Assembly (NCBI GenBank): GCA_000996025.1
Contig: LBYF01000001.1
Coordinates: 3,507-67,506, forward strand
Reading direction: 5' to 3'
Origin: Parcubacteria group bacterium GW2011_GWA2_40_14
Lineage (GTDB): Bacteria; Patescibacteriota; Minisyncoccia; Phycocordibacterales; DATDWN01
DNA length: 64,000 nucleotides
Below the pieces are notes generated by a model, which saw only the letters and a program-made list of their open reading frames with translations, did no database searches and was not told the DNA's origin. The position numbers and the translations under genes were made by a program. How positions within the stretch are numbered: the stretch's first letter is position 1; each line of letters begins with the position of its first letter. Shown one piece after another: positions 23,844 through 42,345 of this stretch.

Positions 23844-23928
23844 TCGAGACACGAGTACCGAGATACGAGAAACGAAGAAAATAAATGCATTCATAATCGT
23901 AATTCGGGTCTCGTAACTCTTAACTCTA
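23844..23928. repeat. Family C heptamer-arm palindrome (rpsL/rpsG junction)
   Basis: tcgagac acgagta ccgagat acgagaa acgaa ... tcgtaat tcgggtc tcgtaac tcttaac tcta. Confidence 0.9.
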
Positions 23929-23936
23929 TCAAAAAG

Positions 23937-24425
23937 ATGAGAAGAAAAGTCATAAACAGAAATATAGTTGGAAAAGATATTGAGTTCAACTCGGAAAAAG
24001 TTGGCAAATTTATTAATTATGTTATGGAAAGGGGTCAGAAAGAAACTGCGCGAAAAATTGTTTACGACGCATTTGAAATAATAAAAGATAAGGCGTTAGC
24101 TACGAAAGAAGCTACGATCGCGGATGCGCTTGAAATTTTTGAAACAGCTTTGAAAAATACGGGACCTTTGACAGAAGTTCGTTCACGAAGAGTTGGTGGG
24201 GCCAACTATCAGATTCCTCGTGAAGTTCGCCCAGAGAGACGAGTTTTCCTTTCCATGAAATGGATTATTGACTCTGCTCGCGATGGCAAGGGCAAGCCAA
24301 TGGCAAAAAAATTGGCAGATGAAATTATTTTAGCAAGTAAAAATGAAGGTAAAGCTGTTAAAAAGAGGGAAGATACGCACAAGATGGCGGAGGCCAATAA
24401 GGCCTTCGCCCATTTTGCATGGTAG
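23937..24425 (+). CDS. rpsG: 30S ribosomal protein S7
   Basis: EVRSRRVGGANYQ, HKMAEANKAFAH. Confidence 0.98.
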   Translation: MRRKVINRNIVGKDIEFNSEKVGKFINYVMERGQKETARKIVYDAFEIIKDKALATKEATIADALEIFETALKNTGPLTEVRSRRVGGANYQIPREVRPERRVFLSMKWIIDSARDGKGKPMAKKLADEIILASKNEGKAVKKREDTHKMAEANKAFAHFAW

Positions 24426-24715
24426 TTTTTCTGGTCTTTTTGCCGAATTTCTTTGCTCTCGGTTTTGCCTGCTCCACGCAACGTACTGCTGTACGTTTTG
24501 GTCACAGTCAAAACCTGCGATCTTCGAAATTCAACAAAAATCCTCACAAAAACTTACAACTTTGACCTTTGCGAAAAATCCTCGGACCGAAAATATTCTC
24601 AACATCTGAATTTAACTAGGCAAGACCTAGTCATATATTATAGATTGCTCAAAAAGGTGTTTTAGTATATAGTCTTATCTATTCTTATCCGAGAGGATTT
24701 TTTATTTTATAAACG

Positions 24716-26857
24716 ATGAATAGAGATTACACATTAGATAAAGTCAGAAATTTTGGAATCATAGCCCACATTGATGCGGGTAAAACAACCACATCTGAAC
24801 GCGTTTTATTCTATACAGGGATGACTCACAAAATCGGTGAGGTGCATGAAGGTGAAACGGTTACTGATTGGATGGATCAGGAGCGCGAGCGCGGAATTAC
24901 TATCACGGCTGCGGCCATTACCTGCTTCTGGAATAAAACGGATACAGAGAAAAAACCTGACAGCATGTATCGTTTCAATATTATTGACACTCCTGGTCAC
25001 ATTGATTTTACTGCAGAGGTTAAACGCTCGCTTCGCGTACTTGACGGGGCAGTAGTGGTTTTTGACGGTGTTGCCGGGGTTGAACCACAATCAGAAACTA
25101 ACTGGCGATATGCAGATGACGGAAATGTTCCAAGAATATGTTTTATAAACAAACTTGACCGAACAGGAGCTTCTTTTGAGCGTTCATACGCATCTATTTT
25201 AGACCGATTAAATAAAAATGCCGTACGTATGCAGATTCCGATGGGTTTGGAAGATAAGTTTGAGGGTGTTATTGACCTTTTAAAAATGAAAGCATACTTT
25301 TTTGAAGGAAATATGGGAATAACCATACGAGAGGAAGAAATTCCAGCTGAATTTCTAGAAGAAGCGAAAAAATACAGAGCAGAACTGATAGAGAAAATAG
25401 TGGAGCAGGACGACAAGATGATGGAGGCGTTTCTAGAAGGCAAGGAGCCATCGTTTGAGGATTTGAAAAAAACTTTGCGCAAAGCAACTCTGGCGGTAAA
25501 AATTATTCCTGTTTTTGCCGGTTCTGCACTGAAAAACAAAGGCGTTCAGCTTGTCCTTGACGCAGTGGTGGATTACCTGCCATCTCCTGTTGATATGCTT
25601 CCGGTTTGCGGACTTGACCCAAAAACAGGCGAGGAGATTTTCCGTAAGCCATCAGACGAAGAGCCATTTTCTGCTCTGGCTTTCAAACTCCAAAACGACC
25701 CGTTTGTTGGGCAGCTGACATTTTTCCGTGTCTACTCCGGAACGTTAGAAGCTGGAACATATATATACAACTCAACAACGGGCGAGAAGGAACGCCTTGG
25801 ACGTATTGTTCGCCTCCAGGCAGACAAACGTGAGGAGGTCAAAAAAGTTTTCTCTGGAGAAATCGCTGCGGCAGTGGGATTAAAGAGCGCAAAAACTTCT
25901 CACACTCTCTGCGATGAAGACAAACCGATTATTCTAGACCCAATTAAATTTGTGGACCCTGTCGTCTCTTTGCGTATTGAACCAAAAACAAAAGCTGACC
26001 AAGAAAAAATGGGTATGTCACTCAAAAAACTTGGAGACGAAGACCCCACCTTTGTTATTTCCTCAAACAGCGAAACAGGTGAAAGTATTATTTCCGGAAT
26101 GGGTGAATTGCATTTGGAAATTATGGTGGAACGTTTGAAACGAGAGTTTGGGGTAGAAGTAAATGTCGGCAAACCACAAGTGGCATATAGAGAAACAATT
26201 TTGGGTACTGCAGAAGCGGAACATAAATACATAAAACAAACAGGAGGCAAAGGACAATACGGACACGTCAAACTGACACTGAAGCCTTTGGAGAAAATTG
26301 AAGAAGGAAAAAAGATTCCAAAGAACACACATAGATACGAGGATTTTGAATTTATTGACTCAATAAAGGGAGGGGTTATTCCGCAAGAATTTATTCCGGC
26401 TGTAGAAAAAGGCGTACATGAGGCCATGGACCGGGGAATTGTGGCCGGATACAAAATGGTCAATGTATCCTGCGAGCTTACCTACGGTTCTTATCACGAC
26501 GTGGACTCATCGGAAATTGCATACAAAATTGCCGCTTCGCAGGCATTTCAAGATGCGGCAAAGAGAGCTCGTCCTGTTATCCTTGAGCCGATTATGAAAG
26601 TGGAAGCAATCATGCCGGAACAGTTCATGGGAGACATCACTGGTTCGCTTTCTGGAAAACGAGGTCAGATAGAAGGTATGGATGAACGTGGAATGCTCCG
26701 AGTTATACACGCCAAAGTGCCTCTGTCTGAAATGTTTGGCTATACCACAGACATCCGTTCAATGACCCAAGGTCGCGGTTCAGTCCAAATGGAATTTGAC
26801 CACTATGAGGTGGTGCCACCGAACGTGGCTACAACAATTATAGAATCAAGAAAATAA
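24716..26857 (+). CDS. fusA: Elongation factor G
   Basis: [31 protein letters not shown]. Confidence 0.99.
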
Positions 26858-26867
26858 CATAAATTTT

Positions 26868-26926
26868 AAAAACTCTACAGACACTGGGTGTCTGTAGAGT
26901 TTTTTGCTAACACTGGGTGTTAGCAA
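26868..26926. repeat. Two tandem ACAC-TGG-GTGT hairpins after fusA (possible terminator)
   Basis: aaaaactctacagacac-tgg-gtgtctgtagagttttt and ttgctaacac-tgg-gtgttagcaa. Confidence 0.85.
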
Positions 26927-26969
26927 GTTTTTAATTGCGAGTAGTTTCTAAAGGCGATACAATATAAGT

Positions 26970-29528
26970 ATGAAAACTACTCCGGAGTATCCTACTCTCG
27001 CTATTTCATCTGAACTTGATGAAGTTTTAAATTCGAAAACACCTGCGCATTTTGATATTTTGCGTAAGCAAACTGAAACACCTCTGATTAGAGGAGGTGA
27101 AAAAGCTTTTTTGCAAGCAGCCAGAGAAAATCAGCCGACAGATTTACCTATTCCTTCCGATGAGGGAATTGTTCATTTTGAAAATGTAACAGTTTCTTCC
27201 TCTCCAGATAAAAATCGCCCTGAAAAAGTAAAAAATACGGAAGAAAAGAAAGAGGAAAAATTTCTTTTGCCTTCGCAAATATTGTTATCTCTGGATGAGA
27301 TGATAAAGAGTGGTCGCCTATTAAAATTCTTGAGATTTAGTGTGGCCGATGCAACTTCAAGTGACGACGTTGAATATTTTTTATTCATTGCCTGTGAAAA
27401 GGGTGATATTACAGTAGAAGAAAAACGAGAGATGCTCGCTTTTTTGAAATCGGAGACAACAGTTTCCTCCATCAGTGAAAAAGTGAAAAATCCTCCGAAT
27501 GCTGAAGGGGATTTAAAAATAGAAGAAGTGGTTGGAGAGACTTTACCGGAGCAGATAGAGGACACTCTTAGAGAGGCGCGTTCAGAATACGCAACACAAC
27601 TTATTGCTTGGAAAAATGAAATTCGGCAGAAAAAAGGAAAATTTGCAAAAGTTCTAGCAGACCTGGGTGGAGAACGGTCTCTGCCAGACCAAGAAAAGCC
27701 CCAAGAATTGAAAGATGCAGAAGAAGCTTATCTGGTAGCTAAAAAGAAAAAGAGACAAGTAATGTTTAGTCAGAGTGAAACTATGGTTGGAATGGAAGGC
27801 GACTACCAGTTCAATATGGAAATGATAAAAGAAGCCGAGAATGAATACATTTCTCTGCAAAGAAAAATTACAGAGTCACTGCCTCCTTTGGAAAAAGGCA
27901 TTGTCACAAAGGCCTTTGAAAAATGGGCCAAACTTCCTATGCCTGCACGGGTTGCTCTTAGTACGGCATTGCTTACAGGTACTTCTGTTGCTATTGGTTC
28001 TTTGGCACTCGGCGGCGCAGCGGCATATGGCGGATATCGTCTGGCACGCGGACTTGCTGGCGCCAGTGTCTCACAAGGAGTTGGTAAATTGGTAGACGGT
28101 ATATTTAGAAAAGGAAATGAAAGAATGAAGAGTAATATACTAGAGCAATATGGTACCAATATATCAGAAGAAAATTTTGAAAAGAAAGAGAAAGAAATGA
28201 TGCGAGCATTTGAGAAAGAAGAAAACGCTATAAAACGTCAGCGTTTATACAAAGCGACCGCGATGATAACTTCCGGTGGATTTGCAGCAGGAGTGCTTGG
28301 TAAAATTTCTTCTTTACAGAGCGCTGTGAATGCGCCAACTGTCGGAGGAGGAGTTCGTCTGTCGGAAAATATTCCAAAATCTGGGGTAATTGTATCGGAA
28401 CCTACGCCTCCTCCTGTGCCTGGACCCATGCTTGGACCAAAGGTGGTGGCAGAATTGCCGACAACGAAAGTGGAGCTTTCTCCGCGTGGATTTATTCAAG
28501 ATTTTGAAAATCTAAAAGCCAAGCTTGTAGAACAATATGGCGGGACGGATAAAGTGCCTGGGCAATACGAGCATTTTGTCAAAACTCCGGCTGTGAAACT
28601 GGCACAAGAGTTTGGTTTTTACGATGCAGAAAAAAATATGAGTGGAATAGGACTGAAAGGTGAGAGTTTGATACTGGACACAAAAGGCAACCTGGTCTAT
28701 CACCAGCTGGATGGTTCTGACCACATCATGATGGATACAAATACAGGAAGCGTGGAAGAAAAATTCAGTGGGAAAATGTTTACAAAGGATATTTCCGAAG
28801 AAGCAACTGCAGATAACGTTTCAGTTGAAACCAAGCCACAATCTGAAGTTTCTGTTGAACCGGAAGTAGTAGAAAATGCTCCACAGGCAACCGAGGCAGA
28901 AAATGTTCCTGAGATAAGTGAACCTGTTTCAGAGTCTGAAATGCCTGCTGAACCTCACGGAGCTGTTGAAAGCACTCCTATGGAAGCGGAAGCTAGTGTC
29001 TCCGAACCTCAGATTTTAAGGCATTTTCCAAGAAGCTTTGAAGAAACATCCATTAGTACACCTTCTGGAGTAACTCTCCACTATGACATTTCAACTGGCA
29101 AGAGCATTCCTGAATCGCTTCTTCTCAATGAGGTAGAATTTGCCCGTCGCTATAACTCTGGCGGAGCTGAAATATGGAAACTGGATGATAAATTTCAGAA
29201 TGGGAATGAATACAAAAATGTGCGCGCACTTTTAGCCCAATCAACCGAAGACCCAAGATATGTAAAACAGTTGGGCCGAATTGTGATGTCTGTGCCGTTT
29301 GAAGATGGCAAAATCCATATTGTTCAGGGTGTAGGCGGAGGCAATCCGAATGAAGCGACAGTTCTTTTGAATGGCAAAGAAGTTGCTAGAGGCACTCTGA
29401 CCCAAACCGGCCCGAAAATAGAATTAATCAAGGGACTCAAAGGAGGATTGCTTTTCCCTGACACGGCTTACGAGCGAGCATTCAAAAAAGTTTTACCTGT
29501 TATTAAGACATTAAAAATGAGAGAATAA
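26970..29528 (+). CDS. Large hypothetical protein with Gly/Ala hydrophobic segments and a Pro/Glu linker
   Basis: 852-aa ORF inserted between fusA and tuf; no family recognised. Confidence 0.85.
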   Translation: MKTTPEYPTLAISSELDEVLNSKTPAHFDILRKQTETPLIRGGEKAFLQAARENQPTDLPIPSDEGIVHFENVTVSSSPDKNRPEKVKNTEEKKEEKFLLPSQILLSLDEMIKSGRLLKFLRFSVADATSSDDVEYFLFIACEKGDITVEEKREMLAFLKSETTVSSISEKVKNPPNAEGDLKIEEVVGETLPEQIEDTLREARSEYATQLIAWKNEIRQKKGKFAKVLADLGGERSLPDQEKPQELKDAEEAYLVAKKKKRQVMFSQSETMVGMEGDYQFNMEMIKEAENEYISLQRKITESLPPLEKGIVTKAFEKWAKLPMPARVALSTALLTGTSVAIGSLALGGAAAYGGYRLARGLAGASVSQGVGKLVDGIFRKGNERMKSNILEQYGTNISEENFEKKEKEMMRAFEKEENAIKRQRLYKATAMITSGGFAAGVLGKISSLQSAVNAPTVGGGVRLSENIPKSGVIVSEPTPPPVPGPMLGPKVVAELPTTKVELSPRGFIQDFENLKAKLVEQYGGTDKVPGQYEHFVKTPAVKLAQEFGFYDAEKNMSGIGLKGESLILDTKGNLVYHQLDGSDHIMMDTNTGSVEEKFSGKMFTKDISEEATADNVSVETKPQSEVSVEPEVVENAPQATEAENVPEISEPVSESEMPAEPHGAVESTPMEAEASVSEPQILRHFPRSFEETSISTPSGVTLHYDISTGKSIPESLLLNEVEFARRYNSGGAEIWKLDDKFQNGNEYKNVRALLAQSTEDPRYVKQLGRIVMSVPFEDGKIHIVQGVGGGNPNEATVLLNGKEVARGTLTQTGPKIELIKGLKGGLLFPDTAYERAFKKVLPVIKTLKMRE

Positions 29529-29537
29529 ACATATTGT

Positions 29538-29837
29538 ATGAGCAACATTTTATCAAAGGATATAATAAAAGAATGGGGACTTGGTACTTTACCAGAAGCA
29601 AAACAATTGGAGATTGTAGAGCGTATGGGACGTCTCTTGTACCAGGCTTTACTTGTACGAGCTCTGGATATTCTCTCTGAAAAAGAGCAGGTGGAGTTTG
29701 ATTTGCTTTTGGACGAAGATACTACAACACCTCAAGATGTTTTAAAATTTCTGGAGTCAAAAATTCCAACATTTGACATTCTCCTTGCCGAAGAAAAACA
29801 AAAATTGAAAGAAGATTTACTTGTGCCCGTGGCGTAA
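29538..29837 (+). CDS. Small acidic helical hypothetical protein (DUF5663-like)
   Basis: 99 aa; pattern resembles a common CPR small-protein family. Confidence 0.75.
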   Translation: MSNILSKDIIKEWGLGTLPEAKQLEIVERMGRLLYQALLVRALDILSEKEQVEFDLLLDEDTTTPQDVLKFLESKIPTFDILLAEEKQKLKEDLLVPVA

Positions 29838-29927
29838 TTTGACATTGGAAGTCATTTTGTATAGTATATTAAACATCGCGTTTTCGTGATTTTTTAATTT
29901 TATAAACAATTTATTAAATAACCACAC

Positions 29928-29991
29928 GCTTTCAGATTTGGATGCCGAGCACCAGAAAATTCATTGGTGCTTCGGCGCCAAATGTGGAAGC
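29928..29991 (-). mobile_element. Short family E variant in the tuf leader
   Basis: gctttcagatttg...caaatgtggaagc; same ends as 23259-23379. Confidence 0.65.
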
Positions 29992-30016
29992 TCTGTGACT
30001 AACATACAAAAATACA

Positions 30017-31222
30017 ATGGCAGAATCAGCAAAATTTGATAGAAGCAAGCCCCACATCAATGTGGGTACTATTGGTCACGTTGACCACGGCAAGACTACA
30101 TTAACAGCAGCTATTTTGGCTGTGCTTGGAAGAGCTGGCGCGGGATATTCATCCAGACTAAAAGGAGTTGACCAAATCGACTCCGCACCTGAAGAAAAAG
30201 CTCGTGGAATCACCATCGCTTTATCCCACAACGAGTATGAGACACCTGCCCGTCACTATGCTCACGTGGATGCTCCTGGTCACGCCGACTATATTAAAAA
30301 CATGATTACTGGCGCCGCACAGATGGACGGCGCAGTCCTTGTGGTTGCCGCAACAGACGGTGTCATGCCTCAAACACGAGAGCATGTTCTCCTTGCAAAA
30401 CAAGTTGGTGTGCCAAAGATAATCGTATTTCTAAACAAATGCGATATGGTTCCAGACAAAGAGCTTATTGATTTGGTGGAGGAAGAAGTTCGAGAACTTC
30501 TAACAAAACAAGGTTTTGATGGCGCGGGAGCTCCTGTAATCCGAGGTTCAGGATTGAAAGCTCTTGAGTCAAAAGACAATACAGACGAATGGGCAATGAA
30601 AGTTCTGGACTTGGCTAGTGCATTGGACACATATTTCCCAATTCCACAGCGAGATTTGGACAAGCCATTCCTCATGCCAGTTGAAGACATTTTCTCTATT
30701 GAAGGACGAGGTACTGTAGTAACAGGCCGTATTGAAAGAGGCGTTGTTAAAGTTGGCGAGGAAATAGAATGTATTGGATTGAAAGACACACAGAAATATA
30801 CAGTTACTGGTATTGAAATGTTCAACAAGTCTCTTGACCAAGGTCAGGCAGGAGACAACGCTGGAATCTTGCTCCGTGGTGCCAAGAAAGAAGAAATTCA
30901 CCGAGGTCAGGTGCTGTCAAAGCCAAAGTCTGTTACTCCTCACACAGAATTTACAGCAGAGGTTTATATCTTGAAGAAAGAAGAAGGTGGACGACACACA
31001 CCTTTCTTTACTGGTTACAAACCGCAGTTTTACATCCGAACAACAGATGTTACAGGTGACGTTACTCTAAACGAAGGTGTTGAGATGGTCATGCCTGGAG
31101 ATACAGTCACTTTCAAAGTAAAGCTCGTTGCTCCGGTTGCGCTTGAAGACAATACGCGATTTGCTATACGCGAGGGAGGAAAGACTGTTGGCGCTGGGGT
31201 CGTTACCAAGATCATAGCGTAA
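30017..31222 (+). CDS. tuf: Elongation factor Tu
   Basis: [23 protein letters not shown]. Confidence 0.99.
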
Positions 31223-31338
31223 CTTCCAAATTCGGCGTACTGCGTTGTTGGACTTCAAAATTTGATTGTCACCGTACGACGAGTACGGCTCCAATCAAAT
31301 TCCTCGTCCGCCTAGCATCGCATCTAAATTTGAAAGTT
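31221..31338 (+). mobile_element. Family E element starting in the tuf stop codon
   Basis: aacttccaaatt...gtcaccgtac-gacga-gtacggctcc...aatttgaaagtt. Confidence 0.8.
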
Positions 31339-31413
31339 AGAGATTACTTACTATTTAGTTTTCAAAAGTTATAATAAAAAACTGCTCATGTGAGCAGTTT
31401 TTTGTATTGACTT

Positions 31414-31623
31414 TTATTTTTCATCTTCTATTTTAAATCCGTCTGCAGGTTGACCTTCTTTTAATGCTCGTACCGCAGCTTCCAAAGCAAGCACACTCAT
31501 TTTATATTGGTCTTCCTTGGCTTTGTTAATTATAGATAGAATTTATTCTCCTAAAGCTTTTTTCTTTTCAATTTCTCCCACTTGTTCTGGTGGCATCTCC
31601 ATACTGGATGTTTCTTCACTCAT
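31414..31623 (-). pseudogene. 70-codon ORF with one internal TAA
   Basis: MSEETSSMEMPPEQVGEIEKKKALGE*ILSIINKAKEDQYKMSVLALEAAVRALKEGQPADGFKIEDEK*. Confidence 0.6.
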
Positions 31624-31760
31624 GATTTTTTGTTATTTAATATGTCATCATTATAGCATGGGAAGTGATTTTGAGTTAATAACTTCACTACGATACCCCA
31701 TCATTTAGAGGCGGGGGTTTGTTTTGCCAAAAATTCATCTCTTACGATATCTCGTAATAA

Positions 31761-31798
31761 ATACACCTATCATACGCTATAGCGTATGATAGGTGTAT
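31761..31798. repeat. Perfect 38-bp loop-less palindrome
   Basis: atacacctatcatacgcta|tagcgtatgataggtgtat; homologous to 40268-40313. Confidence 0.95.
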
Positions 31799-31887
31799 AG
31801 TGAACTATTCATTTTAGGGTTACTATGTAGTTTTGTTTTTGTCAAAAATTTGCCAAAATTTAATTTAAAACTGATATAATTTAGTAA

Positions 31888-32291
31888 ATGATTAATTTCA
31901 AAAAACTACTGAAAGAGAAAAGGGCTTGATATATAAAACTGTCGGAAAAGTTTATCGTCCTATTTTGAAAGAATATGTTACTTTTAATTCTAAAGGTTTT
32001 TATCACTTACGATACGATACTCACGAGAAAGCGAGAAGGGTGAAAGAACAAATATACAAATTTAATTTGCTTCCACTTATTATTCCCGCAATTAAAAACG
32101 CAAAAAATGTGTTTGATTATAAAAAAGAGCAGTATTCCAAACTCCTTGGCAAATATTACGAAATATGGGAACTTCGAGAAACTGTTGGAGGGAAAAACCC
32201 AACTTCGCTATCTGTGATTTTGAGAAGGATCGGGAACGGAAATATTACATTTCTTAGTGTGTATGACAGAAAACCAAAAATGAAAAAATAG
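31888..32291 (+). pseudogene. Basic toxin/nuclease-like gene, apparently frameshifted near its 5' end
   Basis: TATAAT-7-ATG at 31888 reads MINFKKLLKEKRA*; the body (FNSKGFYHL...GNGNITFLSV) is in another frame from 31926. Confidence 0.6.
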
Positions 32292-32295
32292 AAAC

Positions 32296-32387
32296 AAAAA
32301 AGCCATCATGGGGATGGTATTTTTGTGACGTCCACTTTCGGCGTAGAGTAACCTCAAGCCGAATAAAGCTTGCGCTTGATGGACGCT
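32296..32387 (-). ncRNA. Candidate structured small RNA convergent on the 31888-32291 gene
   Basis: Minus-strand TTGACT-17-TATACT (32422-32394); outer stem gcgtcca/tggacgt, GCAA tetraloop hairpin, then a hairpin plus T-run. Confidence 0.6.
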
Positions 32388-32475
32388 AGAGGCAGTATAT
32401 ATGGAAAGGCATTAAAAGTCAATGAATGAATAAATTTGACCCCATAACTATTCTCTGCTAGTATCTTTCTTACAT

Positions 32476-32898
32476 ATGGTAACGAAAGAAGCTCCTACAA
32501 AGAAAGTGGCGGGAAAGACGGCGGTCAAAAAGACTGCGGCTAAAGTTGTTGCCAAACCTAAAGTTGCAAAGGCGCCCGCAAAGCAAGAAACAGTTTCCAA
32601 ACTGCGTATTCGGGTACAGGCCTACGAATACAAGATTCTTGATTTGTCAGTCAAGCAAATCATAGATACGGCTATTCGTTATGATGCTGTAGTGCAAGGA
32701 CCTATTCCTCTTCCGACAAATATAAAAAAATACACTGTCAATCGTTCGGCATTTATTTTTAAAAACGCCCGCGAGCAGTTTGAAATGCGAATTCACAAAC
32801 GACTGATTGATATTTTGAACCCTACTCCAAAGATAATGGAGGCACTGACGAATCTCTCACTTCCGAGTGGTGTAAATATTGATGTAAAAATTATTTAA
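32476..32898 (+). CDS. rpsJ: 30S ribosomal protein S10 with K/A-rich N-terminal extension
   Basis: GPIPLPT, REQFEMRIHKRLIDI. Confidence 0.97.
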   Translation: MVTKEAPTKKVAGKTAVKKTAAKVVAKPKVAKAPAKQETVSKLRIRVQAYEYKILDLSVKQIIDTAIRYDAVVQGPIPLPTNIKKYTVNRSAFIFKNAREQFEMRIHKRLIDILNPTPKIMEALTNLSLPSGVNIDVKII

Positions 32899-32941
32899 CC
32901 GTATGGTTGAATAAAAAGCTGATATCTGCTAATGTATCTCA

Positions 32942-32988
32942 ATCCCATTAGAACTAACGGATTTATAAAATCCTATTTCTAACGGGAT
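32942..32988. repeat. Intergenic hairpin at the rpsJ/rplC junction
   Basis: atcccattagaa...ggattt/aaatcc...ttctaacgggat. Confidence 0.65.
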
Positions 32989-33019
32989 AAATCGCCGTTA
33001 CGGCATTTTTATTTTTCTT

Positions 33020-33655
33020 ATGACTAAATTTATATTAGGCACAAAAATAAATATGACCCAAATCTTTGACGAGGCGGGGATTGTTCATCCAGTAACTGCC
33101 ATCAAGGCGGGACCGATGATTGTCACACAGGTTAAGTCTGAAAAAACAGATGGTTATTCTGCCATCCAAGTCGGTTTTGGCGCACGCAAAGCAAAAAATA
33201 TAAATAAACCTTTGAGAGGTCATATTAAAGATAATAATTTTATGTATCTTCGCGAATTTCGTACAGATGATACACAGGGTAACCCTGTGTATACTGTCGG
33301 CGATGCGATTGACATTTCCACTTTTTCTGAAGGTGATAAAGTTACTGTTTCCAGTATTTCAAAAGGCAAAGGTTTTCAAGGTGTTGTAAAGCGACACGGT
33401 TTTAAAGGGGGTCCTCGTTCACACGGACAAAAGCATTCCGAACGCGAGCCGGGCTCTATAGGTGGCGGTGGTCGTGACGGCGGACGTGTGGCAAAAGGAA
33501 AAAGAATGGCAGGTCGTATGGGCGGAGACAGAATCACTTCAAAAGGTTTGACGATAGTTTCTGTCAAACCAGAAACAGGCGAGCTTTTTATTCGTGGAGC
33601 GGTGCCGGGAAGAAGGGGAACATTAATAGAGATAAGAGATACGAGTAAAGAGTAA
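33020..33655 (+). CDS. rplC: 50S ribosomal protein L3
   Basis: SKGKGFQGVVKRHGF, REPGSIG. Confidence 0.98.
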   Translation: MTKFILGTKINMTQIFDEAGIVHPVTAIKAGPMIVTQVKSEKTDGYSAIQVGFGARKAKNINKPLRGHIKDNNFMYLREFRTDDTQGNPVYTVGDAIDISTFSEGDKVTVSSISKGKGFQGVVKRHGFKGGPRSHGQKHSEREPGSIGGGGRDGGRVAKGKRMAGRMGGDRITSKGLTIVSVKPETGELFIRGAVPGRRGTLIEIRDTSKE

Positions 33656-33701
33656 CGGATTTGAATTATTCGTAACTCGTATCTCGATACTCGTAACTCT
33701 A
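33627..33701. repeat. Family C palindrome overlapping the rplC 3' end
   Basis: tagagat aagagat acgagta aagagta acgga ... tcgtaac tcgtatc tcgatac tcgtaac tcta. Confidence 0.9.
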
Positions 33702-33710
33702 TTCAAAATT

Positions 33711-34427
33711 ATGGAAGGAACAATTTACAACCAAAAAGGAAAGGAATCAGGAAAAATCTCCCTGCCGGAAGCAGTTTTTGGTTTGAAGTGGAATGCCGAC
33801 CTTGTGCATCAGGTTGTTGTTTCTATGGAATCAAGCGCCCGTACACCTGTGGCTCATGCAAAAAACCGTGGGGATGTAAGAGGCGGAGGTAAAAAGCCAT
33901 GGAAGCAAAAAGGCACTGGTCGTGCTCGCCATGGTTCAATCCGTTCTCCCCTCTGGAGACATGGAGGTGTTACGCACGGCCCAACAAATCTGAAAAATTT
34001 TGATAGAAAAATAAACAAGAAAATGAAAGCCAAAGCGCTTTACACAATCCTTTCCAAAAAATTTAAAGATAATCAGGTAGTTTTTGTTGATAAGATTGAA
34101 TTTTCTTCTATAAAAACAAAATTTGCGAAAGAAGTGATGGATTCACTGTTTGATAAAGCTTCAAAAAAGAAAAACAATGCAATTCTTCTTACAATTCCAA
34201 AGAAAGATAAAAACGTGGAAAAAAGTTTCAGTAATTTTGGCAATCTAAAAGTGGATGAAATTCGAAACATTAGTCCGATTGATTTGATGAAATATAAATA
34301 TGTTGCTATCGTTGATCCAGAAAAAGGTCTACCACAAATTTCTAATAAAATCGAGGTAAGAGTAAAGAGTAAAGAGTTACGAAAAATCCAAAATTCAGAT
34401 TCTAAACTCGATACTCATAACTCGTAA
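33711..34427 (+). CDS. rplD: 50S ribosomal protein L4
   Basis: KPWKQKGTGRARHGS; C-terminal tail encoded by the family C repeat. Confidence 0.98.
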   Translation: MEGTIYNQKGKESGKISLPEAVFGLKWNADLVHQVVVSMESSARTPVAHAKNRGDVRGGGKKPWKQKGTGRARHGSIRSPLWRHGGVTHGPTNLKNFDRKINKKMKAKALYTILSKKFKDNQVVFVDKIEFSSIKTKFAKEVMDSLFDKASKKKNNAILLTIPKKDKNVEKSFSNFGNLKVDEIRNISPIDLMKYKYVAIVDPEKGLPQISNKIEVRVKSKELRKIQNSDSKLDTHNS

Positions 34428-34432
34428 CTCTA
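34351..34432. repeat. Family C palindrome inside the rplD 3' end
   Basis: tcgaggt aagagta aagagta aagagtt acgaa ... tctaaac tcgatac tcataac tcgtaac tcta. Confidence 0.9.
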
Positions 34433-34438
34433 CCCAAT

Positions 34439-34717
34439 ATGAATGATCTGACACATATTTTAATAAGACCGCACATTACCGAGAAAGCAACAATATCGGC
34501 GGAGTCTTCAGTCTATGTTTTTGAAATAGATGCTCGTACCACAAAAGCTATAGTGAAAAAAGCATTTGTAGAAAAATACAAAATCACTCCGCTAAAAATC
34601 AGAACGGTTACTATTCCAGCCAAGCAAGTTTTTGTCCGAGGCAAGAGAGGGACAAAGGCCAGTTACAAAAAGGCCTACATTTATTTAAAGAAAGGAACTA
34701 AGGTAGAAAATTTATAG
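34439..34717 (+). CDS. rplW: 50S ribosomal protein L23
   Basis: RPHITEKA, YKKAYIYLK. Confidence 0.96.
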   Translation: MNDLTHILIRPHITEKATISAESSVYVFEIDARTTKAIVKKAFVEKYKITPLKIRTVTIPAKQVFVRGKRGTKASYKKAYIYLKKGTKVENL

Positions 34718-34772
34718 GAATAATAAAGCCGCGCTAAAAGGACGGTTGCGCGACATGATTTCGCTAAATCAC

Positions 34773-35615
34773 ATGAAAAGATATAAACCAACAACAAAAT
34801 CCCGCCGACAAATGACAACTATTTCATTTGGGGATTTTGTGACAACAAACGAGCCGGAGAAATCGTTAACGCACGGTTTCCGAAGACAAATGGGACGAAA
34901 CCATCACGGCAAAGTAACAACTCGTCACAAAGGAGGTGGTCACAAAAGACTCTTCCGAGAGATTGATTTTAAATACGACAAAATAAATGTTCCGTACACT
35001 ATAAAAACAGTAGAGTATGACCCAAACCGCTCTGGCTTTATTGGCTTGGCACAGTATAAAGATGGTGAGAAAAGATACGTTCTTCTTCCTCGTGGAGTAA
35101 AAGTGGGCGATATCCTAGTGACTTCGGAGACAGCAGAAGTAAAAGTTGGAAACAGGCTACCTCTCCGTAACATCACTATCGGCACATTTGTTTACAATGT
35201 AGAAGTCAAGCCAAAAGGTGGCGCAAAAATGGCTCGTTCTGCAGGAAACTTTGTGGAGGTCATTGCAAAGGACGCCGGTTATGTGGACATCAAACTTCCT
35301 TCTACTGAAATCCGCAAAGTGTTGGACACAGCATGGGCATCAATTGGAGATGTTTCAAATCAGGAAAACCGACTGGTCAATCTCGGCAAAGCCGGCCGTT
35401 CACGATGGCTTGGCATACGCCCAACTGTTCGTGGTACGGCCATGAACCCAGTTGACCACCCACACGGAGGAGGTGAAGGTCGCCAAGGTCGCGGCCGCAG
35501 ACGAGCAATCTCCATCTACGGTAAGGGAACAGGAAAGGGTCAGAAGTCCCGAACTCCAAAGAAGTACTCCAATAAATTCATCGTCTCACGAAGAAAAGTT
35601 GGAAAAAGAAAGTAA
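34773..35615 (+). CDS. rplB: 50S ribosomal protein L2
   Basis: EYDPNRS, VRGTAMNPVDHPHGGGEG; ATG at 34773. Confidence 0.98.
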   Translation: MKRYKPTTKSRRQMTTISFGDFVTTNEPEKSLTHGFRRQMGRNHHGKVTTRHKGGGHKRLFREIDFKYDKINVPYTIKTVEYDPNRSGFIGLAQYKDGEKRYVLLPRGVKVGDILVTSETAEVKVGNRLPLRNITIGTFVYNVEVKPKGGAKMARSAGNFVEVIAKDAGYVDIKLPSTEIRKVLDTAWASIGDVSNQENRLVNLGKAGRSRWLGIRPTVRGTAMNPVDHPHGGGEGRQGRGRRRAISIYGKGTGKGQKSRTPKKYSNKFIVSRRKVGKRK

Positions 35616-35644
35616 AAATGATATAGTTGGTTGAGGAGGGACAC

Positions 35645-35893
35645 ATGAGTCTAGAAGAGAGAGAGAGCTTAGAGACAATCGCCAGTCAATTAGGAAAAGA
35701 ATTGGTCGGAGTTATTCCGGGCGTTTGGGGCACCAGTCTTACTGCAAGGCCTGTAAAAGAGCCAGAGTTAAAGCTTAAAGTGATTTGTACCGAGGAAGCT
35801 AAACAAAAAGTTCTTCAAAAATACGGCGACGATAGTTACCGAGGTCATAAACTTTATTTTCAAATTTCAGAACAAGGTCCTCGATTTGCGTAA
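35645..35893 (+). CDS. Small hypothetical protein inserted between rplB and rpsS
   Basis: GAGGAGG before ATG 35645; followed by a terminator-like hairpin agggcggtc..gaccgccct-tttt. Confidence 0.65.
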   Translation: MSLEERESLETIASQLGKELVGVIPGVWGTSLTARPVKEPELKLKVICTEEAKQKVLQKYGDDSYRGHKLYFQISEQGPRFA

Positions 35894-36100
35894 CCATAAT
35901 TTTCTCCAGGGCGGTCCAGGCGACCGCCCTTTTTCATTTGACAATATATAGTATATTATATAGTATGTAGCCCAAGTAAAGAGCCCATTACCTCTTATAC
36001 GATTTGTTTGCGGTAGTCGACAGAATACCACTAACAAAGTGGTTTTTAATTTGTTTTTTTATTCGTATCCATTCGTGTTTTAATTCGTTATTTCGTATTT

Positions 36101-36454
36101 ATGACAAGGTCATCAAAAAAAGGTCCATATGTAGATGAACGAGTTCTCAAGAAAATTGAGGGCAAAAAGCCACTTGAAACAGGGGTTATTAAAACGTGGT
36201 CAAGAGCTTGTGTCATATCACCAGAAATGGTCGGTTTTAATTTTGGTGTTCACAATGGCAGAACTCATCTGGAAGTTCTTGTCTCCGAAGACATGGTCGG
36301 ACACCGTCTGGGTGAATTTTCTCCAACTAAAAAGTTTATAAAACACGGAGGAAAGATGCAGAAAGAGCAAGAGCAGAAAGCAAAGGAAGGCGAGATTGCC
36401 GCCGCACAGTCTGCAAAGGCAGTGACCGCTGAACCAGCAGGAGCAAAAAAATAA
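36101..36454 (+). CDS. rpsS: 30S ribosomal protein S19
   Basis: [22 protein letters not shown]. Confidence 0.98.
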
Positions 36455-36458
36455 CCGC

Positions 36459-36554
36459 GATACAAATATGCGAATACATACGAATAAAACGAATAGAATA
36501 CAAGAAATGGAATTAATTTTCGTATCATTCGCATAAATTCGTATATTGGTATCG
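36459..36554. repeat. Family A-like palindrome (rpsS/rplV junction)
   Basis: cgatac..gcgaat..acgaat..acgaat / ttcgt..attcgc..attcgt..gtatcg. Confidence 0.75.
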
Positions 36555-36563
36555 ATAAACTAT

Positions 36564-36962
36564 ATGAAAACTGCTCACGCCACACTTTCAAATTTCCGAC
36601 AAGCACCACGCAAAATGCGTATGGTGGCAAATACTGTACGTGGTAAAAGAGTTGTTGATGCCTTGATTAATTTGGAATTTACTGCAAAAAAAGCCTCACT
36701 TCCTATAAAAACTCTTATACAATCTGCCGTGGCAAATGCAAAAGCTATGGACTTGCCTACAGAAAATCTAATAATAAAAACTATCAAAGTAGATTCAGGC
36801 AAAATTTTATACAGGCGAATGCCAGCCGCTCAAGGAAGCGCGCACCCTATACGTAAGAGAACCAGTTCAATCTTTGTTGAACTGGGCGAGAATCGAGAAC
36901 CGAGTACCGAGAAACGAAAAATCAAGAATCCAAAATCGAAACTCGTATCTCGTATCTCTTAA
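36564..36962 (+). CDS. rplV: 50S ribosomal protein L22
   Basis: RQAPRKMRMVA, IRKRTS; ATG at 36564; repeat-encoded tail. Confidence 0.96.
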   Translation: MKTAHATLSNFRQAPRKMRMVANTVRGKRVVDALINLEFTAKKASLPIKTLIQSAVANAKAMDLPTENLIIKTIKVDSGKILYRRMPAAQGSAHPIRKRTSSIFVELGENREPSTEKRKIKNPKSKLVSRIS

Positions 36963-36967
36963 CTCTA
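36886..36967. repeat. Family C palindrome inside the rplV 3' end
   Basis: gcgagaa tcgagaa ccgagta ccgagaa acgaa ... tcgaaac tcgtatc tcgtatc tcttaac tcta. Confidence 0.9.
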
Positions 36968-36973
36968 CCTACC

Positions 36974-37633
36974 ATGACACATACCGTTCATCCATATTCA
37001 CATCGCCTAGGAATCATCCGAGATTGGAAATCTCGCTGGTTTGGCGTAAAAAATAAATACAAGGAATTTTTGAAAAGTGATGTGCTTTTACGGGAGTATT
37101 TGGAGAAAAAACTTCGTGATAACTATGTCAGCAATATAGAAATGGAGCGAGGTGAGAAAGTGTTGCGTATTATTATTGAGACATCTCGTCCAGGTATGAT
37201 TATTGGTCGCTCAGGTGATGGCGCCGTTAAATTAAAAAAGGATATTTCTGCATTTTTGAATAAACATAAACTTTCTCCTCTCGGCGAAGTGAAAGTGGAT
37301 ATAAAAGAAATTAAATCTCCCGAGTCAAACGCCACAATCGTTGCCCAAATGGTTGCCGATGGATTGGAAAAGCGTTTGCCTTTCCGCCGTGTGGTGAAAC
37401 AGATGGTGGAAAAAGTTATGGCAAATCGTGATGTCCTTGGTGTAAAGATAGAATTGTCTGGACGACTCGGTGGCGCTTCAATGGCACGTCAGGAAAAAAT
37501 AAAGAAAGGTCGTATTCCGCTTCAGACTTTCCGCGCCGATGTGGATTTTTGTAAATATAAAACAAGAGTCCCTTATGGGGGTGTTGGTATTAAGGTTTGG
37601 ATATATAAGGGAGAAGTGTTCGCAAAAAAGTAA
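36974..37633 (+). CDS. rpsC: 30S ribosomal protein S3
   Basis: HPYSHRLG, RPGMIIGR, GRIPLQT. Confidence 0.98.
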   Translation: MTHTVHPYSHRLGIIRDWKSRWFGVKNKYKEFLKSDVLLREYLEKKLRDNYVSNIEMERGEKVLRIIIETSRPGMIIGRSGDGAVKLKKDISAFLNKHKLSPLGEVKVDIKEIKSPESNATIVAQMVADGLEKRLPFRRVVKQMVEKVMANRDVLGVKIELSGRLGGASMARQEKIKKGRIPLQTFRADVDFCKYKTRVPYGGVGIKVWIYKGEVFAKK

Positions 37634-37715
37634 AAAGTTTGTAAAGTTATAAAGTTCATAAAGTAAAATCCATAATCCACTTTACAAACTTTAAAAACTT
37701 TCAACTTTATAAACT
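37627..37715. repeat. Family B palindrome (rpsC/rplP junction)
   Basis: aaagtttgt aaagttat aaagttcat aaagt ... actttacaa actttaaaa actttca actttataa act. Confidence 0.9.
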
Positions 37716-37721
37716 AAATTT

Positions 37722-38138
37722 ATGTTGTTACCAAAAAAAGTAAAATACAGAAAGTGGCAAACATTTCGAAAGAACGCTAATAAAGTTGGTGTGGCTTCAC
37801 GTGGTACCACTATTTCTTTCGGCTCTCATGCCTTGAAAGCCCTGTCAGGAGCGCGTATTATGTCAAACCAGATTGAAGCTGGCAGAAAAGCCCTATCTCG
37901 CGCAGTTGGTAAGACCGGCAAGATTTGGATCCGCATTTTTCCAGATATGCCCCTGACCAAAAAGCCAGCTGAAGTGAAGCTTGGTAAAGGAAAGGGTGAT
38001 TTGTTTGGCTACTGCGCGCCGGTTAAGCCAGGAAGAATTATTTTTGAAGTTGATGGTGTTACGGATGCAGTTGCCAGAGAAGCTTTGCGAAAAGCTGGAA
38101 CGAAATTACCCCTCAAAACAAAGATAATCTCTCACTAG
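37722..38138 (+). CDS. rplP: 50S ribosomal protein L16
   Basis: QIEAGR, WIRIFPD, GKGKG. Confidence 0.98.
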
Positions 38139-38306
38139 AACTTCCAAATTATGACCAATGTGATTTTTCACAATTCAACTTCAGATTTTCCTCCTTACAG
38201 GAGCAGTACACCTTTTCGATCTTTTGAGTACAAAAACTCTGAAAAGGTCTTGCGAAGTCATACCCATGACTTCTCACTCGACCTTGGCCAAATTTGAAAG
38301 TTCTAG
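38135..38306 (+). mobile_element. Long family E variant (rplP/rpmC junction)
   Basis: Terminal inverted repeats ctagaacttccaaatt / aatttgaaagttctag. Confidence 0.75.
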
Positions 38307-38333
38307 CCAAATGTGAAATTTAGTGTATATTAA

Positions 38334-38537
38334 ATGAAATTTATGAAAGAGTTTACAAACAAAAGTAAAAAGGAACTACAGACAATACTTTCAGAAAAAA
38401 GACTAGCTTTGCGCACATTTCGCTTTTCCATAGCGGGTAGCAATATGCGCAATGTGAAAGAAGGTAGCGCACTGAAGAAAGATATTGCTATGGTGTTGAC
38501 TCTTTTGAATGTGAAAGCAAAAGTGAATAACGAATAA
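38334..38537 (+). CDS. rpmC: 50S ribosomal protein L29
   Basis: Position in the operon plus LRTFRF...KKDIA..LT. Confidence 0.9.
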   Translation: MKFMKEFTNKSKKELQTILSEKRLALRTFRFSIAGSNMRNVKEGSALKKDIAMVLTLLNVKAKVNNE

Positions 38538-38543
38538 AGAATA

Positions 38544-38801
38544 ATGAATAATGAAAAAATAAAAAATAATACAGTAAAAACTCTCTCGGGAGTAGTAGTG
38601 TCAAATAAGATGACAGACACTGTTGTGGTGGAAGTTGTTCGTTTTGTAAAACATCCAAAGTACGGCAAGTACGTCTCTAAAAGCAAAAAGTTTAAAGCCC
38701 ACGATGTCGGCAATACAAAGCAAATTGGGGATAAGGTTACCATAGAGGAGTGCAGACCAATTTCAAAAGATAAACACTTTAGAATAGTCGAAAGTTCGTA
38801 A
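38544..38801 (+). CDS. rpsQ: 30S ribosomal protein S17
   Basis: [23 protein letters not shown]. Confidence 0.97.
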
Positions 38802-38872
38802 AGTTATAAAGTTCATAAAGCAGACTCAAAACCCACTTTACAAACTTTAAAAACTTTATAACTTTATAAACT
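38786..38872. repeat. Family B palindrome (rpsQ/rplN junction)
   Basis: aaagttcgt aaagttat aaagttcat aaag ... actttacaa actttaaaa actttata actttataa act. Confidence 0.9.
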
Positions 38873-38878
38873 AAAATT

Positions 38879-39250
38879 ATGATCCAACCGCAATCAATTG
38901 TCAAAATAGCAGATAACACCGGAGCAAAAATCGGACGCGTGTTCAAAGTGCTCGGAAGTTCCAAAAAGAGATACGCCAGCATAGGCGAGTTGGTGGTTCT
39001 CTCTGTCCAGAAAGCTGAACCTAGAAAAACAACAAAGAAAAAAGATATTTTGTATGCAGTGGTTGTCCGTCAACGAGCGCCTTTTCGAAGAAAGGACGGC
39101 TCATATATTCGTTTTGACGAAAATGCAGTAGTTATAGTGGTCAAAGATAAAAAAGAGCCGGTAGCAGGACGTATTTTCGGTCCTATCCCGCGGGAACTTG
39201 GTGAGATGGGGTATCAAAAGATTATTAGTTTAGCCCCAGAAGTAGTCTAA
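38879..39250 (+). CDS. rplN: 50S ribosomal protein L14
   Basis: ADNTGAK, RFDENA, ISLAPEVV. Confidence 0.98.
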   Translation: MIQPQSIVKIADNTGAKIGRVFKVLGSSKKRYASIGELVVLSVQKAEPRKTTKKKDILYAVVVRQRAPFRRKDGSYIRFDENAVVIVVKDKKEPVAGRIFGPIPRELGEMGYQKIISLAPEVV

Positions 39251-39252
39251 AA

Positions 39253-39327
39253 TTGAGTCAAGAGTAGCGAGATAAGAGTCACGAAGAATGCAAAATCGTA
39301 ACTCGAGTCTCGGAACTCGTAACTCTA
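39253..39327. repeat. Family C palindrome (rplN/rplX junction)
   Basis: ttgagtc aagagta gcgagat aagagtc acgaa ... tcgtaac tcgagtc tcggaac tcgtaac tcta. Confidence 0.9.
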
Positions 39328-39335
39328 TCAATATC

Positions 39336-39602
39336 ATGAATGTAAAAAAAGATGACAAAGTAATAGTGCTCACCGGTAAAGACAAAGGTAAAACAGGAAC
39401 CGTTGTCAAATCATTTCCAAAAGAAAACAGAGTCATTGTTTCTGGTGTAAATATTTTGAAAGTTCATCAGAAGCCTCGAAAGAGTGGAGAGAAAGGACAG
39501 ATACTAGACAAGACCATGCCGATAGATGTATCCAACGTAAAAAGGGTCGAGGCACGAGGTACGAGAAAAGAGACCCGAAAAATCAAAGGCTCAAAATCGT
39601 AA
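39336..39602 (+). CDS. rplX: 50S ribosomal protein L24
   Basis: VKKDDKVIVLTGKDKGKTG, PIDVSNV; likely ATG at 39336. Confidence 0.96.
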   Translation: MNVKKDDKVIVLTGKDKGKTGTVVKSFPKENRVIVSGVNILKVHQKPRKSGEKGQILDKTMPIDVSNVKRVEARGTRKETRKIKGSKS

Positions 39603-39628
39603 CTCTATACTCGTAACTCTTAACTCTA
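39547..39628. repeat. Family C palindrome overlapping the rplX 3' end
   Basis: tcgaggc acgaggt acgagaa aagagac ccgaa ... tcgtaac tctatac tcgtaac tcttaac tcta. Confidence 0.9.
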
Positions 39629-39637
39629 TTAAAAACT

Positions 39638-40234: not shown

Positions 40235-40267
40235 AATTATTTTCATCTACAATAAATGGAATTTTTT

Positions 40268-40313
40268 ACTCATACACCTATCACACGCTATAGCGTGTGA
40301 TAGGTGTATGAGT
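40268..40313. repeat. Perfect 46-bp loop-less palindrome
   Basis: actcatacacctatcacacgcta|tagcgtgtgataggtgtatgagt. Confidence 0.95.
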
Positions 40314-40424
40314 TGAACAAGTTTTAATAGGTTTATATATTATTATGTGCTAATATTAATAATAGAAGTTGAGACAGTTTAGTCTCAATATATTTTGTCA
40401 GAAATCACGACTAAAGGAGAAAGT

Positions 40425-40810: not shown

Positions 40811-40937
40811 ACTGGGCGGGTGGATTTTCAAGGCGGTGAGGAGAGACCTGCCGCCTTTTTGTTTTGTTTGACAATTTGTGTGTATATATGGTAGTTTGTT
40901 TTTAGAATCAGTTCGTCAAAAACAGGGGGGATTATCG

Positions 40938-42216: not shown

Positions 42217-42220
42217 CCAG

Positions 42221-42334
42221 AAAAATGTAAACTGTAAAAATCAAAATGGAAAATGACAGATTAAAATTAAAAATGATGAATTCAGAAATTTTGCATTTTA
42301 CATTGTCATTTTGATTTTTGATATTTACATTTTT
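42221..42334. repeat. Family D AT-rich palindrome (rpsN/rpsH junction)
   Basis: Heptamer arms aaaatgt aaactgt aaaaatc aaaatgg aaaatga; 42-nt core identical in three copies. Confidence 0.9.
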
Positions 42335-42345
42335 AATTATATTTT

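What the first reader, a model, noticed from the sequence alone, without database searches (positions are those of the whole stretch)
23844..39628. Family C: six 5x7-nt periodic-arm hairpins at ribosomal-protein gene junctions, each ending 7-10 nt before the next ATG
Seen: copies at 23844, 33627, 34351, 36886, 39253 and 39547. Each has five purine-rich heptamers (NNGAGNN x4, then CG(A/G)A), a variable loop and five complementary heptamers ending AACTCT. The gap to the ATG is 9, 10, 7, 7, 9 and 10 nt, with no Shine-Dalgarno. Heptamer register and the GAG/CTC cores are kept while other positions vary, so the stem has regularly spaced mismatches. Inference: the fixed geometry suggests function (SD-independent translational coupling, an RNA-processing signal, or a protein-binding lattice) rather than random repeat spread.
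Basis: partly seen in the sequence, partly recalled or inferred. Interest (0 to 1): 0.85.

Follow-up and report, generated by a model that had tools for sequence, protein, structure and literature searches.

The report
Gene-less hairpin inserts between ribosomal genes
Six hairpin-shaped inserts built from 7-base repeats sit between ribosomal-protein genes of a tiny groundwater bacterium; the same kind of arms frames a small gene and interrupts ribosomal RNA in relatives, so they are likely gutted copies of a selfish cassette rather than a translation signal.

Summary
The six hairpins are real, at the stated places and gaps (11 arm matches against 0.01 expected). The genome holds 9 junction copies, 2 whole copies in frame inside trmD and gatB, and 2 lone arms. 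None of 40 congeners carries this arm family; their junctions are mostly short or hold other repeat families. In two genomes of the order, arms of this family frame a four-helix-bundle gene (PF05635). In one of them they also sit inside 23S rRNA and at rplC|rplD. Copies agree in register like offspring of one master and show no within-copy covariation. Shine-Dalgarno motifs are rare genome-wide, and four copies overlap the upstream gene. Best reading: gene-less derivatives of an intervening-sequence-type cassette, likely copied into tolerated, highly transcribed sites through short matches to host codons; the copying step is unknown. A start-codon function is not excluded: 8 of 9 junction copies precede ribosomal-protein genes. 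This scan has reported the class before on other DNA and on a sister family in this genome.

The parts
23844..23927 (+). Family C hairpin at rpsL|rpsG; begins right after the rpsL stop, ends 9 nt before the rpsG ATG
   Evidence: z -4.0
33627..33700 (+). Family C hairpin at rplC|rplD; first GAG is an in-frame Glu codon of rplC, whose stop (33653-33655) lies in the left arm
   Evidence: same family at the same junction in G180
34351..34431 (+). Family C hairpin at rplD|rplW; rplD reads through to a stop in the right arm (34425-34427)
36886..36966 (+). Family C hairpin at rplV|rpsC; encodes the rplV C-terminal tail (stop 36960-36962), where relatives mostly have a Lys-rich tail
39253..39326 (+). 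Family C hairpin at rplN|rplX; intergenic, 2 nt after the rplN stop, 9 nt before the rplX ATG
   Evidence: 49 of 56 arm bases shared with the rplQ|rplM copy on contig C13
39547..39627 (+). Family C hairpin at rplX|rplE; rplX stop (39600-39602) lies in the right arm

Best explanation
The six hairpins are copies of one small element with mirror-image 7-base-repeat arms, and they are likely gene-less derivatives of a selfish cassette that in other Paceibacteria carries a four-helix-bundle gene between the same kind of arms. Shown: the same arm family frames a PF05635 gene, interrupts 23S rRNA and sits at rplC|rplD in G180; the copies here agree in register; they are missing from congeners. Inferred: the empty form arose by loss of the gene, leaving the first and last repeat units; it spread within this lineage by copying (donor and enzyme unknown; the cassette's protein acting in trans is the likeliest helper); it enters where host codons already resemble an arm unit (for example Glu-x-Arg), without a target duplication; and it persists where it does little harm: tight junctions of highly expressed operons, loose protein tails and loops, rRNA helix tips. 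The fixed 3' gap likely follows from short empty spacers, a tail that travels with the element, and selection to keep the last 6-10 nt before ATG single-stranded in an organism without Shine-Dalgarno motifs.
For: Full form: G180 C10 cassette has four GAG units, a fifth unit holding codons 3-4 of the gene, the gene (PF05635 E 2e-36; PDB 2gsc E 1e-18), and a CTC arm that encodes its last residues and ends 5 nt before the next ATG; G177 C4 likewise. 34 of 39 four-helix-bundle hits in relatives have paired periodic arms, against 5 of 39 mismatched controls on the pairing score. Family C lies in G180 23S rRNA at two sites, and a sister family at two 23S sites of this genome. Copying: in-register agreement 291 against 232 +/- 10 (left) and 369 against 334 +/- 8 (right) for unit-shuffled arms; three copies of another family in G008 are 119-120 of 120 nt identical up to the ATG. 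Patchy: 0 of 40 congeners, 6 of 400 other genomes of the order; hairpin-rich genomes are scattered on the tree; the sister genome G015 has another family at four of the same junctions. The trmD, gatB and mnmA loops are plain in some congeners and hold other families in others. First GAG is an in-frame Glu in 4 of 4 overlapping window copies. Junction load tracks four-helix-bundle gene count, rho 0.55, n 37 (kin not independent).
Against: No intact four-helix-bundle gene in this 97.8% complete genome (one truncated weak hit without arms), and hairpin-rich G017 and G008 have none either. No filled and empty allele pair of one species was seen. In the GTDB scan only 1 of 119 loci with this repeat unit had such a gene upstream; 9 were empty hairpins, 64 lone arrays, 42 had short flanks, 3 had long loops, so the unit also lives without cassettes. 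Family C arms go with two different protein subclades. The in-frame Glu rule fails for the trmD and C24 copies (read). GAG/CTC cores stay almost invariant while spacers drift, which means some constraint still acts. The bias to ribosomal-protein genes (8 of 9) is not explained by any test here. No mobility enzyme was identified.
Confidence: 0.75

Rival explanations
1. The hairpins are a selected translation device: the stem brings stop and start together, or the 3' arm binds a factor that recruits ribosomes without a Shine-Dalgarno motif.
For: 9 of 9 junction copies end 6-10 nt before ATG, 8 of 9 at ribosomal-protein genes; sense orientation 11 of 11; cores nearly invariant; two hairpins of other families end at start codons in divergent spacers; PMC4679880 reports most TAACTGA sets just upstream of starts.
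Against: No covariation; 21 of 39 relatives' loci show no periodic tract at any scored junction; either arm alone can be left before the ATG in relatives; copies in coding loops and 23S rRNA; the upstream stop falls before, in the left arm or in the right arm; SD motifs are rare genome-wide.
Confidence: 0.12
2. Each hairpin grew in place from host sequence by 7-nt slippage and template switching; families reflect convergence on favoured heptamers.
For: Host codons supply seed units (L3 ends in E-I/V-R in several hairpin-free relatives; MnmA Y-E-L-R-E-S is shared with congeners); copy lengths differ in steps of 7 in 8 of 9 copies; lone arrays of the unit occur in many phyla.
Against: Units agree by position across loci (P < 0.0001 and 0.0014); four distant copies share a near-identical loop; G008 copies are 119-120 of 120 identical; the arms frame a gene elsewhere.
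Confidence: 0.08
3. The stems are domesticated RNA-processing sites: RNase III cuts them as it cuts rRNA intervening sequences, which sets the levels of single cistrons.
For: An RNase III gene is present; Coxiella's heptamer-armed IVS is cut by RNase III in vitro (PMC4990558); the same arm families lie in 23S rRNA.
Against: Family C stems are broken every few pairs; the rRNA copies carry an extra basal stem that the mRNA copies lack; four copies are partly translated; patchy distribution.
Confidence: 0.05

Closest known systems
ORF-bearing intervening sequences (IVS) of 23S rRNA with an S23p / 23S_rRNA_IVP (PF05635, TIGR02436) gene, e.g. Coxiella burnetii helix 45 (PMC4990558, passages read)
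   Same: Terminal inverted repeats forming a stem, heptamer repeats beside the gene's start, copy number changing by whole units, patchy distribution; the same arm family occurs in 23S rRNA and around a PF05635 gene in G180.
   Different: The window copies lie in mRNA, carry no gene, are partly translated, and lack the basal stem of the rRNA copies; excision is untested.
Intergenic TAACTGA heptamer repeats of Beggiatoaceae, Cyanobacteria and Bacteroidetes (MacGregor 2015, PMC4679880, parts 1-6 of 9 read)
   Same: 7-nt unit close to TAACTC(G/T), forward orientation just upstream of start codons without SD, over-represented at translation genes, some in-frame copies in variable protein regions.
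   Different: Described there as direct repeats (one inverted case in 170), with no paired purine arm and no link to four-helix-bundle genes; read as a regulatory network.
Diversity-generating retroelements (RT plus Avd; PMC3240598, passages read)
   Same: The cassette protein has a weak bAvd match (E 1e-4, under the cut-off); the genome has three RT genes, one beside a bAvd gene; DGR cDNA integrates at identities of 8 bp or more.
   Different: No adenine-specific variation among copies; no template/variable repeat pair is involved.
Rickettsia palindromic elements, REP/REPIN and cyanobacterial STRR (recalled; one search returned no usable paper)
   Same: Small non-autonomous palindromes that spread between genes and in frame into protein loops (RPE); 7-nt tandem units (STRR).
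   Different: Periodic paired arms tied to a four-helix-bundle gene; no matching transposase was looked for or seen.

Membership tests
23S rRNA intervening sequence (S23p type) | Lies within a helix of 23S rRNA | tested here: not met
   The six window copies lie in mRNA. The same family does lie at two 23S sites in G180, and a sister family at two sites in this genome.
23S rRNA intervening sequence (S23p type) | Terminal inverted repeats that form a stem | tested here: met
   z -2.0 to -4.6; core positions pair in 98-100% of cells.
23S rRNA intervening sequence (S23p type) | Encloses an S23p / PF05635 ORF | tested here: not met
   No ORF in the loops; no intact gene in the genome. Met for the same arm family in G180 and G177.
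23S rRNA intervening sequence (S23p type) | Excised from the RNA by RNase III without re-ligation | not testable with these tools
   RNase III gene present; no RNA run was listed.
23S rRNA intervening sequence (S23p type) | Patchy presence among kin | tested here: met
   0 of 40 congeners; 6 of 400 genomes of the order.
TAACTGA-type heptamer repeats (MacGregor 2015) | [quoted passage not shown] | tested here: met
   9 of 9 junction copies.
TAACTGA-type heptamer repeats (MacGregor 2015) | Exact TAACTGA unit in direct arrays without an inverted partner | tested here: not met
   Unit is NNNNCTC, degenerate, and paired with a purine arm.
Diversity-generating retroelement product | Adenine-specific variation on the RNA strand | tested here: not met
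   Deviation at A columns 65 of 320, at T columns 33 of 160, P 1.0; two sister families P 1.0 and 0.09.
Diversity-generating retroelement product | RT and Avd available in the genome | tested here: met
   Three RVT_1 hits; bAvd gene beside the C7 RT.
MITE | Target-site duplication flanking the inverted ends | tested here: inconclusive
   None seen by eye at gatB, trmD and the junctions against empty orthologs; ends merge with host codons. Closest empty orthologs are about 80% identical in protein, so short duplications could have decayed.
REP/REPIN with RAYT transposase | Tagged palindromes flanking a RAYT gene | not tested
   No RAYT search was run; the genes found between arms of this family were PF05635.

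The most novel reading that the evidence does not exclude
Family C is the non-autonomous form of an undescribed RNA-based mobile system: an Avd-like pentamer (five subunits, five 7-nt units per arm) binds the arms, a host reverse transcriptase copies the hairpin, and the copy enters the most transcribed loci (rRNA helices, ribosomal-protein junctions) in sense orientation through short matches to host codons, rewriting ribosomal-protein tails and start regions as it goes.
Probability: 0.2. Interest if true: 0.85.

Novelty: new variant of a known kind. Interest (0 to 1): 0.5.

Why it matters
It ties three separate puzzles to one element: the origin of rRNA intervening sequences, the unexplained heptamer repeats before bacterial start codons, and the function of the four-helix-bundle protein family. 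Here one arm family is seen in all three states (gene-bearing cassette, rRNA insert, empty mRNA insert), which gives a defined protein and a defined 80-nt substrate for binding and mobility tests. The inserts also supply new C-terminal tails to L3, L4, L22 and L24 and new loops to TrmD and GatB, and they mislead annotation (false starts, long tails). The class has been reported by this scan many times, so this window adds detail rather than a new class.

Tried and rejected
Rfam: no family on the hairpins; only tmRNA in the window. Promoter and terminator scan of 32300-40400: none of the five copies there scores as a terminator. Within-copy covariation: none (11 copies, the gatB copy was parsed with only two left units and kept). 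Adenine-specific mutagenesis: none. Convergent-gap test: all periodic families gave 34 paired hits against 2 in shuffles, 24 co-directional, 5 divergent, 3 convergent, 1 edge, 1 coding; 12 were checked by hand and two are truly convergent, so the class is not barred from convergent gaps; the detector missed 4 of the 11 family C copies and caught a few other palindromes. Core conversion in place (AAG to GAG) between G015 and this genome at four shared junctions was considered: the alignments show no shared loops, and G180 has family C at rplC|rplD independently, so repeated entry at the same sites is preferred but not proved. Expression: no RNA holder listed. Contigs of four DNA runs matched the window with 0-1 differences where they covered it; an empty rplN|rplX join in two runs at 85% likeness probably comes from another organism. 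RT count also tracks junction load (rho 0.43) but two hairpin-rich genomes have no RT hit, so it is not used as support. The 16S 3' end was not found with one motif. No complex or structure prediction was run. Literature searches gave nothing usable.
Full report
Setting. The window is the str, S10 and spc gene cluster of a 637.5-kb, 26-contig genome, 97.8% complete, found in groundwater and soil metagenomes. Size and gene content fit the Paceibacteria/Parcubacteria group of candidate phyla; that label is my inference, and earlier notes on look-alike DNA use it too.

Observation. The six copies are at 23844, 33627, 34351, 36886, 39253 and 39547. Each has four NNGAGNN units, a fifth unit with CG(A/G)A, a loop and a mirror arm of CTC-ending units. 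Gaps to the next ATG are 9, 10, 7, 7, 9 and 10 nt. The arm pattern occurs 11 times in the window against 0.01 by chance; z-scores are -2.0 to -4.6. Rfam has no match. Four copies overlap the upstream gene: rplC, rplD, rplV and rplX read about 9 to 25 codons into the hairpin. And SD-like 4-mers precede only 8.6% of 532 genes called by my own gene caller, against 5.5% after shuffling.

Copies in the genome. Besides the six there are three more junction copies (ssb|rpsR, rplQ|rplM, and before a PilB-like ATPase; these labels are recalled from the protein sequences), two whole hairpins in frame inside trmD and gatB, and two lone purine arms in frame in mnmA and a methylpurine glycosylase gene. All 9 junction copies are co-directional and end 6-10 nt before an ATG; 8 of 9 lead into ribosomal-protein genes. 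All 11 whole copies are A-rich on the host sense strand, so they share one orientation. Co-direction alone means little, since 460 of 587 junctions are co-directional. Family C is one of several periodic hairpin families: 34 paired hits genome-wide against 2 in shuffles, at least two of them in truly convergent gaps (12 hits checked).

Covariation and descent. The GAG/CTC cores pair in 98-100% of cells. The spacer positions pair no better with their own partner arm than with other copies' arms (43 against 45.7 +/- 3.3, P 0.83, 11 copies). So the stem is not being tuned copy by copy. Across copies, units agree by position more than shuffled units do (291 against 232 +/- 10; 369 against 334 +/- 8; 9 of the 11 copies used), and 8 of 9 lengths differ by multiples of 7. 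Four distant copies share a near-identical loop. These are offspring of one master that have slipped in 7-nt steps. Variation is equal at A and T columns (65 of 320, 33 of 160), which argues against DGR-type adenine mutagenesis.

Relatives. I fetched the cluster from 39 of 40 relatives. Family C is missing at the six junctions in 0 of 26, 27, 38, 37, 37 and 3 genomes; median gaps are 4-18 nt. The right-arm pattern is in 0 of 40 congeners and 6 of 400 genomes of the order. Junction load is uneven: 21 of 39 loci have no periodic tract at any scored junction and 10 have three or more, and the rich genomes are scattered on a 15-protein tree (G021 dropped for too few genes). The sister genome G015 has an AAG/CTT family at four of the junctions where this genome has family C. 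Either arm alone can be left before the ATG. In G008 three copies of another family are 119-120 of 120 nt identical right up to the ATG of three different genes: the class copies itself, tail included. The trmD, gatB and mnmA loops are plain in some of the five congeners checked and hold other families in G017, G010 or G005.

The full form. TIGR02436 four-helix-bundle genes were found in 12 of 41 genomes, none in this one. Of 39 such hits from two searches, 34 have paired periodic arms; 5 of 39 mismatched controls reach the pairing score. Two have family C arms. In G180 the left arm has four GAG units, the last holding the gene's ATG, then a fifth unit like the fifth unit here; the right arm encodes the last residues and ends 5 nt before the next ATG. 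The protein is PF05635 (E 2e-36), matches PDB 2gsc, and bAvd weakly (E 1e-4, under the cut-off). G180 also has empty family C at rplC|rplD, starting at the same Glu codon of L3, and at two sites in 23S rRNA. This genome has its sister family at two 23S sites; by eye 9 of 21 genomes examined have periodic hairpins at one or more of three 23S sites. I take these for the helix 9, 25 and 45 regions from recalled numbering. The rRNA copies carry an extra basal stem that mRNA copies lack. Junction load correlates with four-helix-bundle gene count (rho 0.55) and RT count (rho 0.43), n 37; kin are not independent and G017 and G008 are rich with neither. Against a tight link: of 119 GTDB loci with this repeat unit only 1 had such a gene upstream, 9 were empty hairpins and 64 lone arrays.

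Ends. The first GAG is an in-frame Glu codon in 4 of 4 overlapping window copies, and hairpin-free relatives often end L3 in E-I/V-R, which already spells most of a unit. The gatB right arm runs into the host's D-T-P codons and the mnmA arm into Y-E-L-R-E-S. The trmD and C24 copies do not follow the Glu rule. I saw no target duplication. This suggests entry through short matches; it is inferred from inspection, not from a statistical test.

How it most likely works. Shown: a copied, oriented, patchy element whose arm family also frames a PF05635 gene and interrupts 23S rRNA. Inferred: the empty form comes from loss of the gene; it is copied with help in trans; it survives at tolerant sites; the 3' gap reflects short spacers, a carried tail and the need for an open start region. 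Whether DNA or RNA is the intermediate is open. Sense orientation and the preference for rRNA and ribosomal-protein operons fit an RNA step, and the genome has three RT genes, one beside a bAvd gene, but no direct sign was found. Confidence 0.75 for the cassette-derived insert, 0.12 for a selected translation device, 0.08 for growth in place, 0.05 for a processing signal.

What is known. Coxiella's 23S IVS has terminal inverted repeats, heptamer repeats before its S23p gene and is cut by RNase III (PMC4990558, passages; general IVS passage in PMC8708148). MacGregor described TAACTGA direct repeats before SD-less starts and proposed translational regulation (PMC4679880, parts 1-6 of 9). DGR cDNA integrates at 8 bp or more of identity (PMC3240598, passages). 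No supplements were read. Searches found no paper that describes heptamer-armed four-helix-bundle cassettes or their empty forms at operon junctions; most subscription journals are outside the library. This scan has reported the class before in other genomes and for a sister family in this window; those are unchecked notes, not support. The elements work like intervening sequences but fail two membership features (rRNA location, enclosed ORF), so I file them as a variant.

Verdict. Real; first interpretation partly supported; new variant of a known kind; interest 0.5.

Noticed in passing
window 36455-36560, 37634-37716, 38794-38873, 42217-42345, 42733-42864, 44488-44602, 6923-7025, 56750-56853: Hairpins of three other periodic families at rpsS|rplV, rpsC|rplP, rpsQ|rplN, rpsN|rpsH, rpsH|rplF, rpsE|rplO, before pilB (a divergent spacer) and at infC|rpmI; same class, different units.
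   Followed up: partly
G000 C21:4355-4480 and 5095-5220 (L330): Gene-less hairpins of the AAAGT/ACTTT family inserted in this genome's own 23S rRNA, each on an extra G+C-rich basal stem.
   Followed up: yes
G000 C21:3850-4040: A third 23S insert of about 180 nt folds as a long stem and holds what looks like an internally deleted small endonuclease gene (GIY-YIG-like; resemblance recalled, not tested).
   Followed up: no
window 24426-24560, 31223-31340, 38139-38300, 43411-43535: Structured repeats of 130-190 nt that start right at stop codons, not 7-periodic; similar ones occur in many congeners.
   Followed up: no
G000 C7:7778-9128; C5:26520-27266; C4:25093-25695: Three DGR-sized reverse transcriptase genes; the C7 one has a bAvd gene next to it on the other strand.
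   Followed up: partly
G000 C6:2970-3330: Truncated four-helix-bundle-like ORF (PF05635 E 1.6e-4, under the cut-off) without paired arms.
   Followed up: partly
L040, L041, L042, L044, L242, L244; G000 C8:178-282: The junction before a PrgI-family gene holds four-helix-bundle cassettes with different arms in six genomes, and an empty hairpin in this genome.
   Followed up: partly
G005:C27:11159-11773; G023:C1:12706-13317: Reverse transcriptase genes lying within the stretch fetched for the ribosomal-protein cluster, probably in the long rplE-rpsN gap.
   Followed up: no
window 26970-29837, 40878-41912, 47864-49663: An 852-aa and a 99-aa gene between fusA and tuf, a 344-aa multi-HTH gene between rplE and rpsN, and toxin-antitoxin pairs after secY.
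   Followed up: no
L087-L205 (GTDB scan): The unit TCGTAAC forms long tandem arrays in many phyla, mostly without a partner arm.
   Followed up: partly
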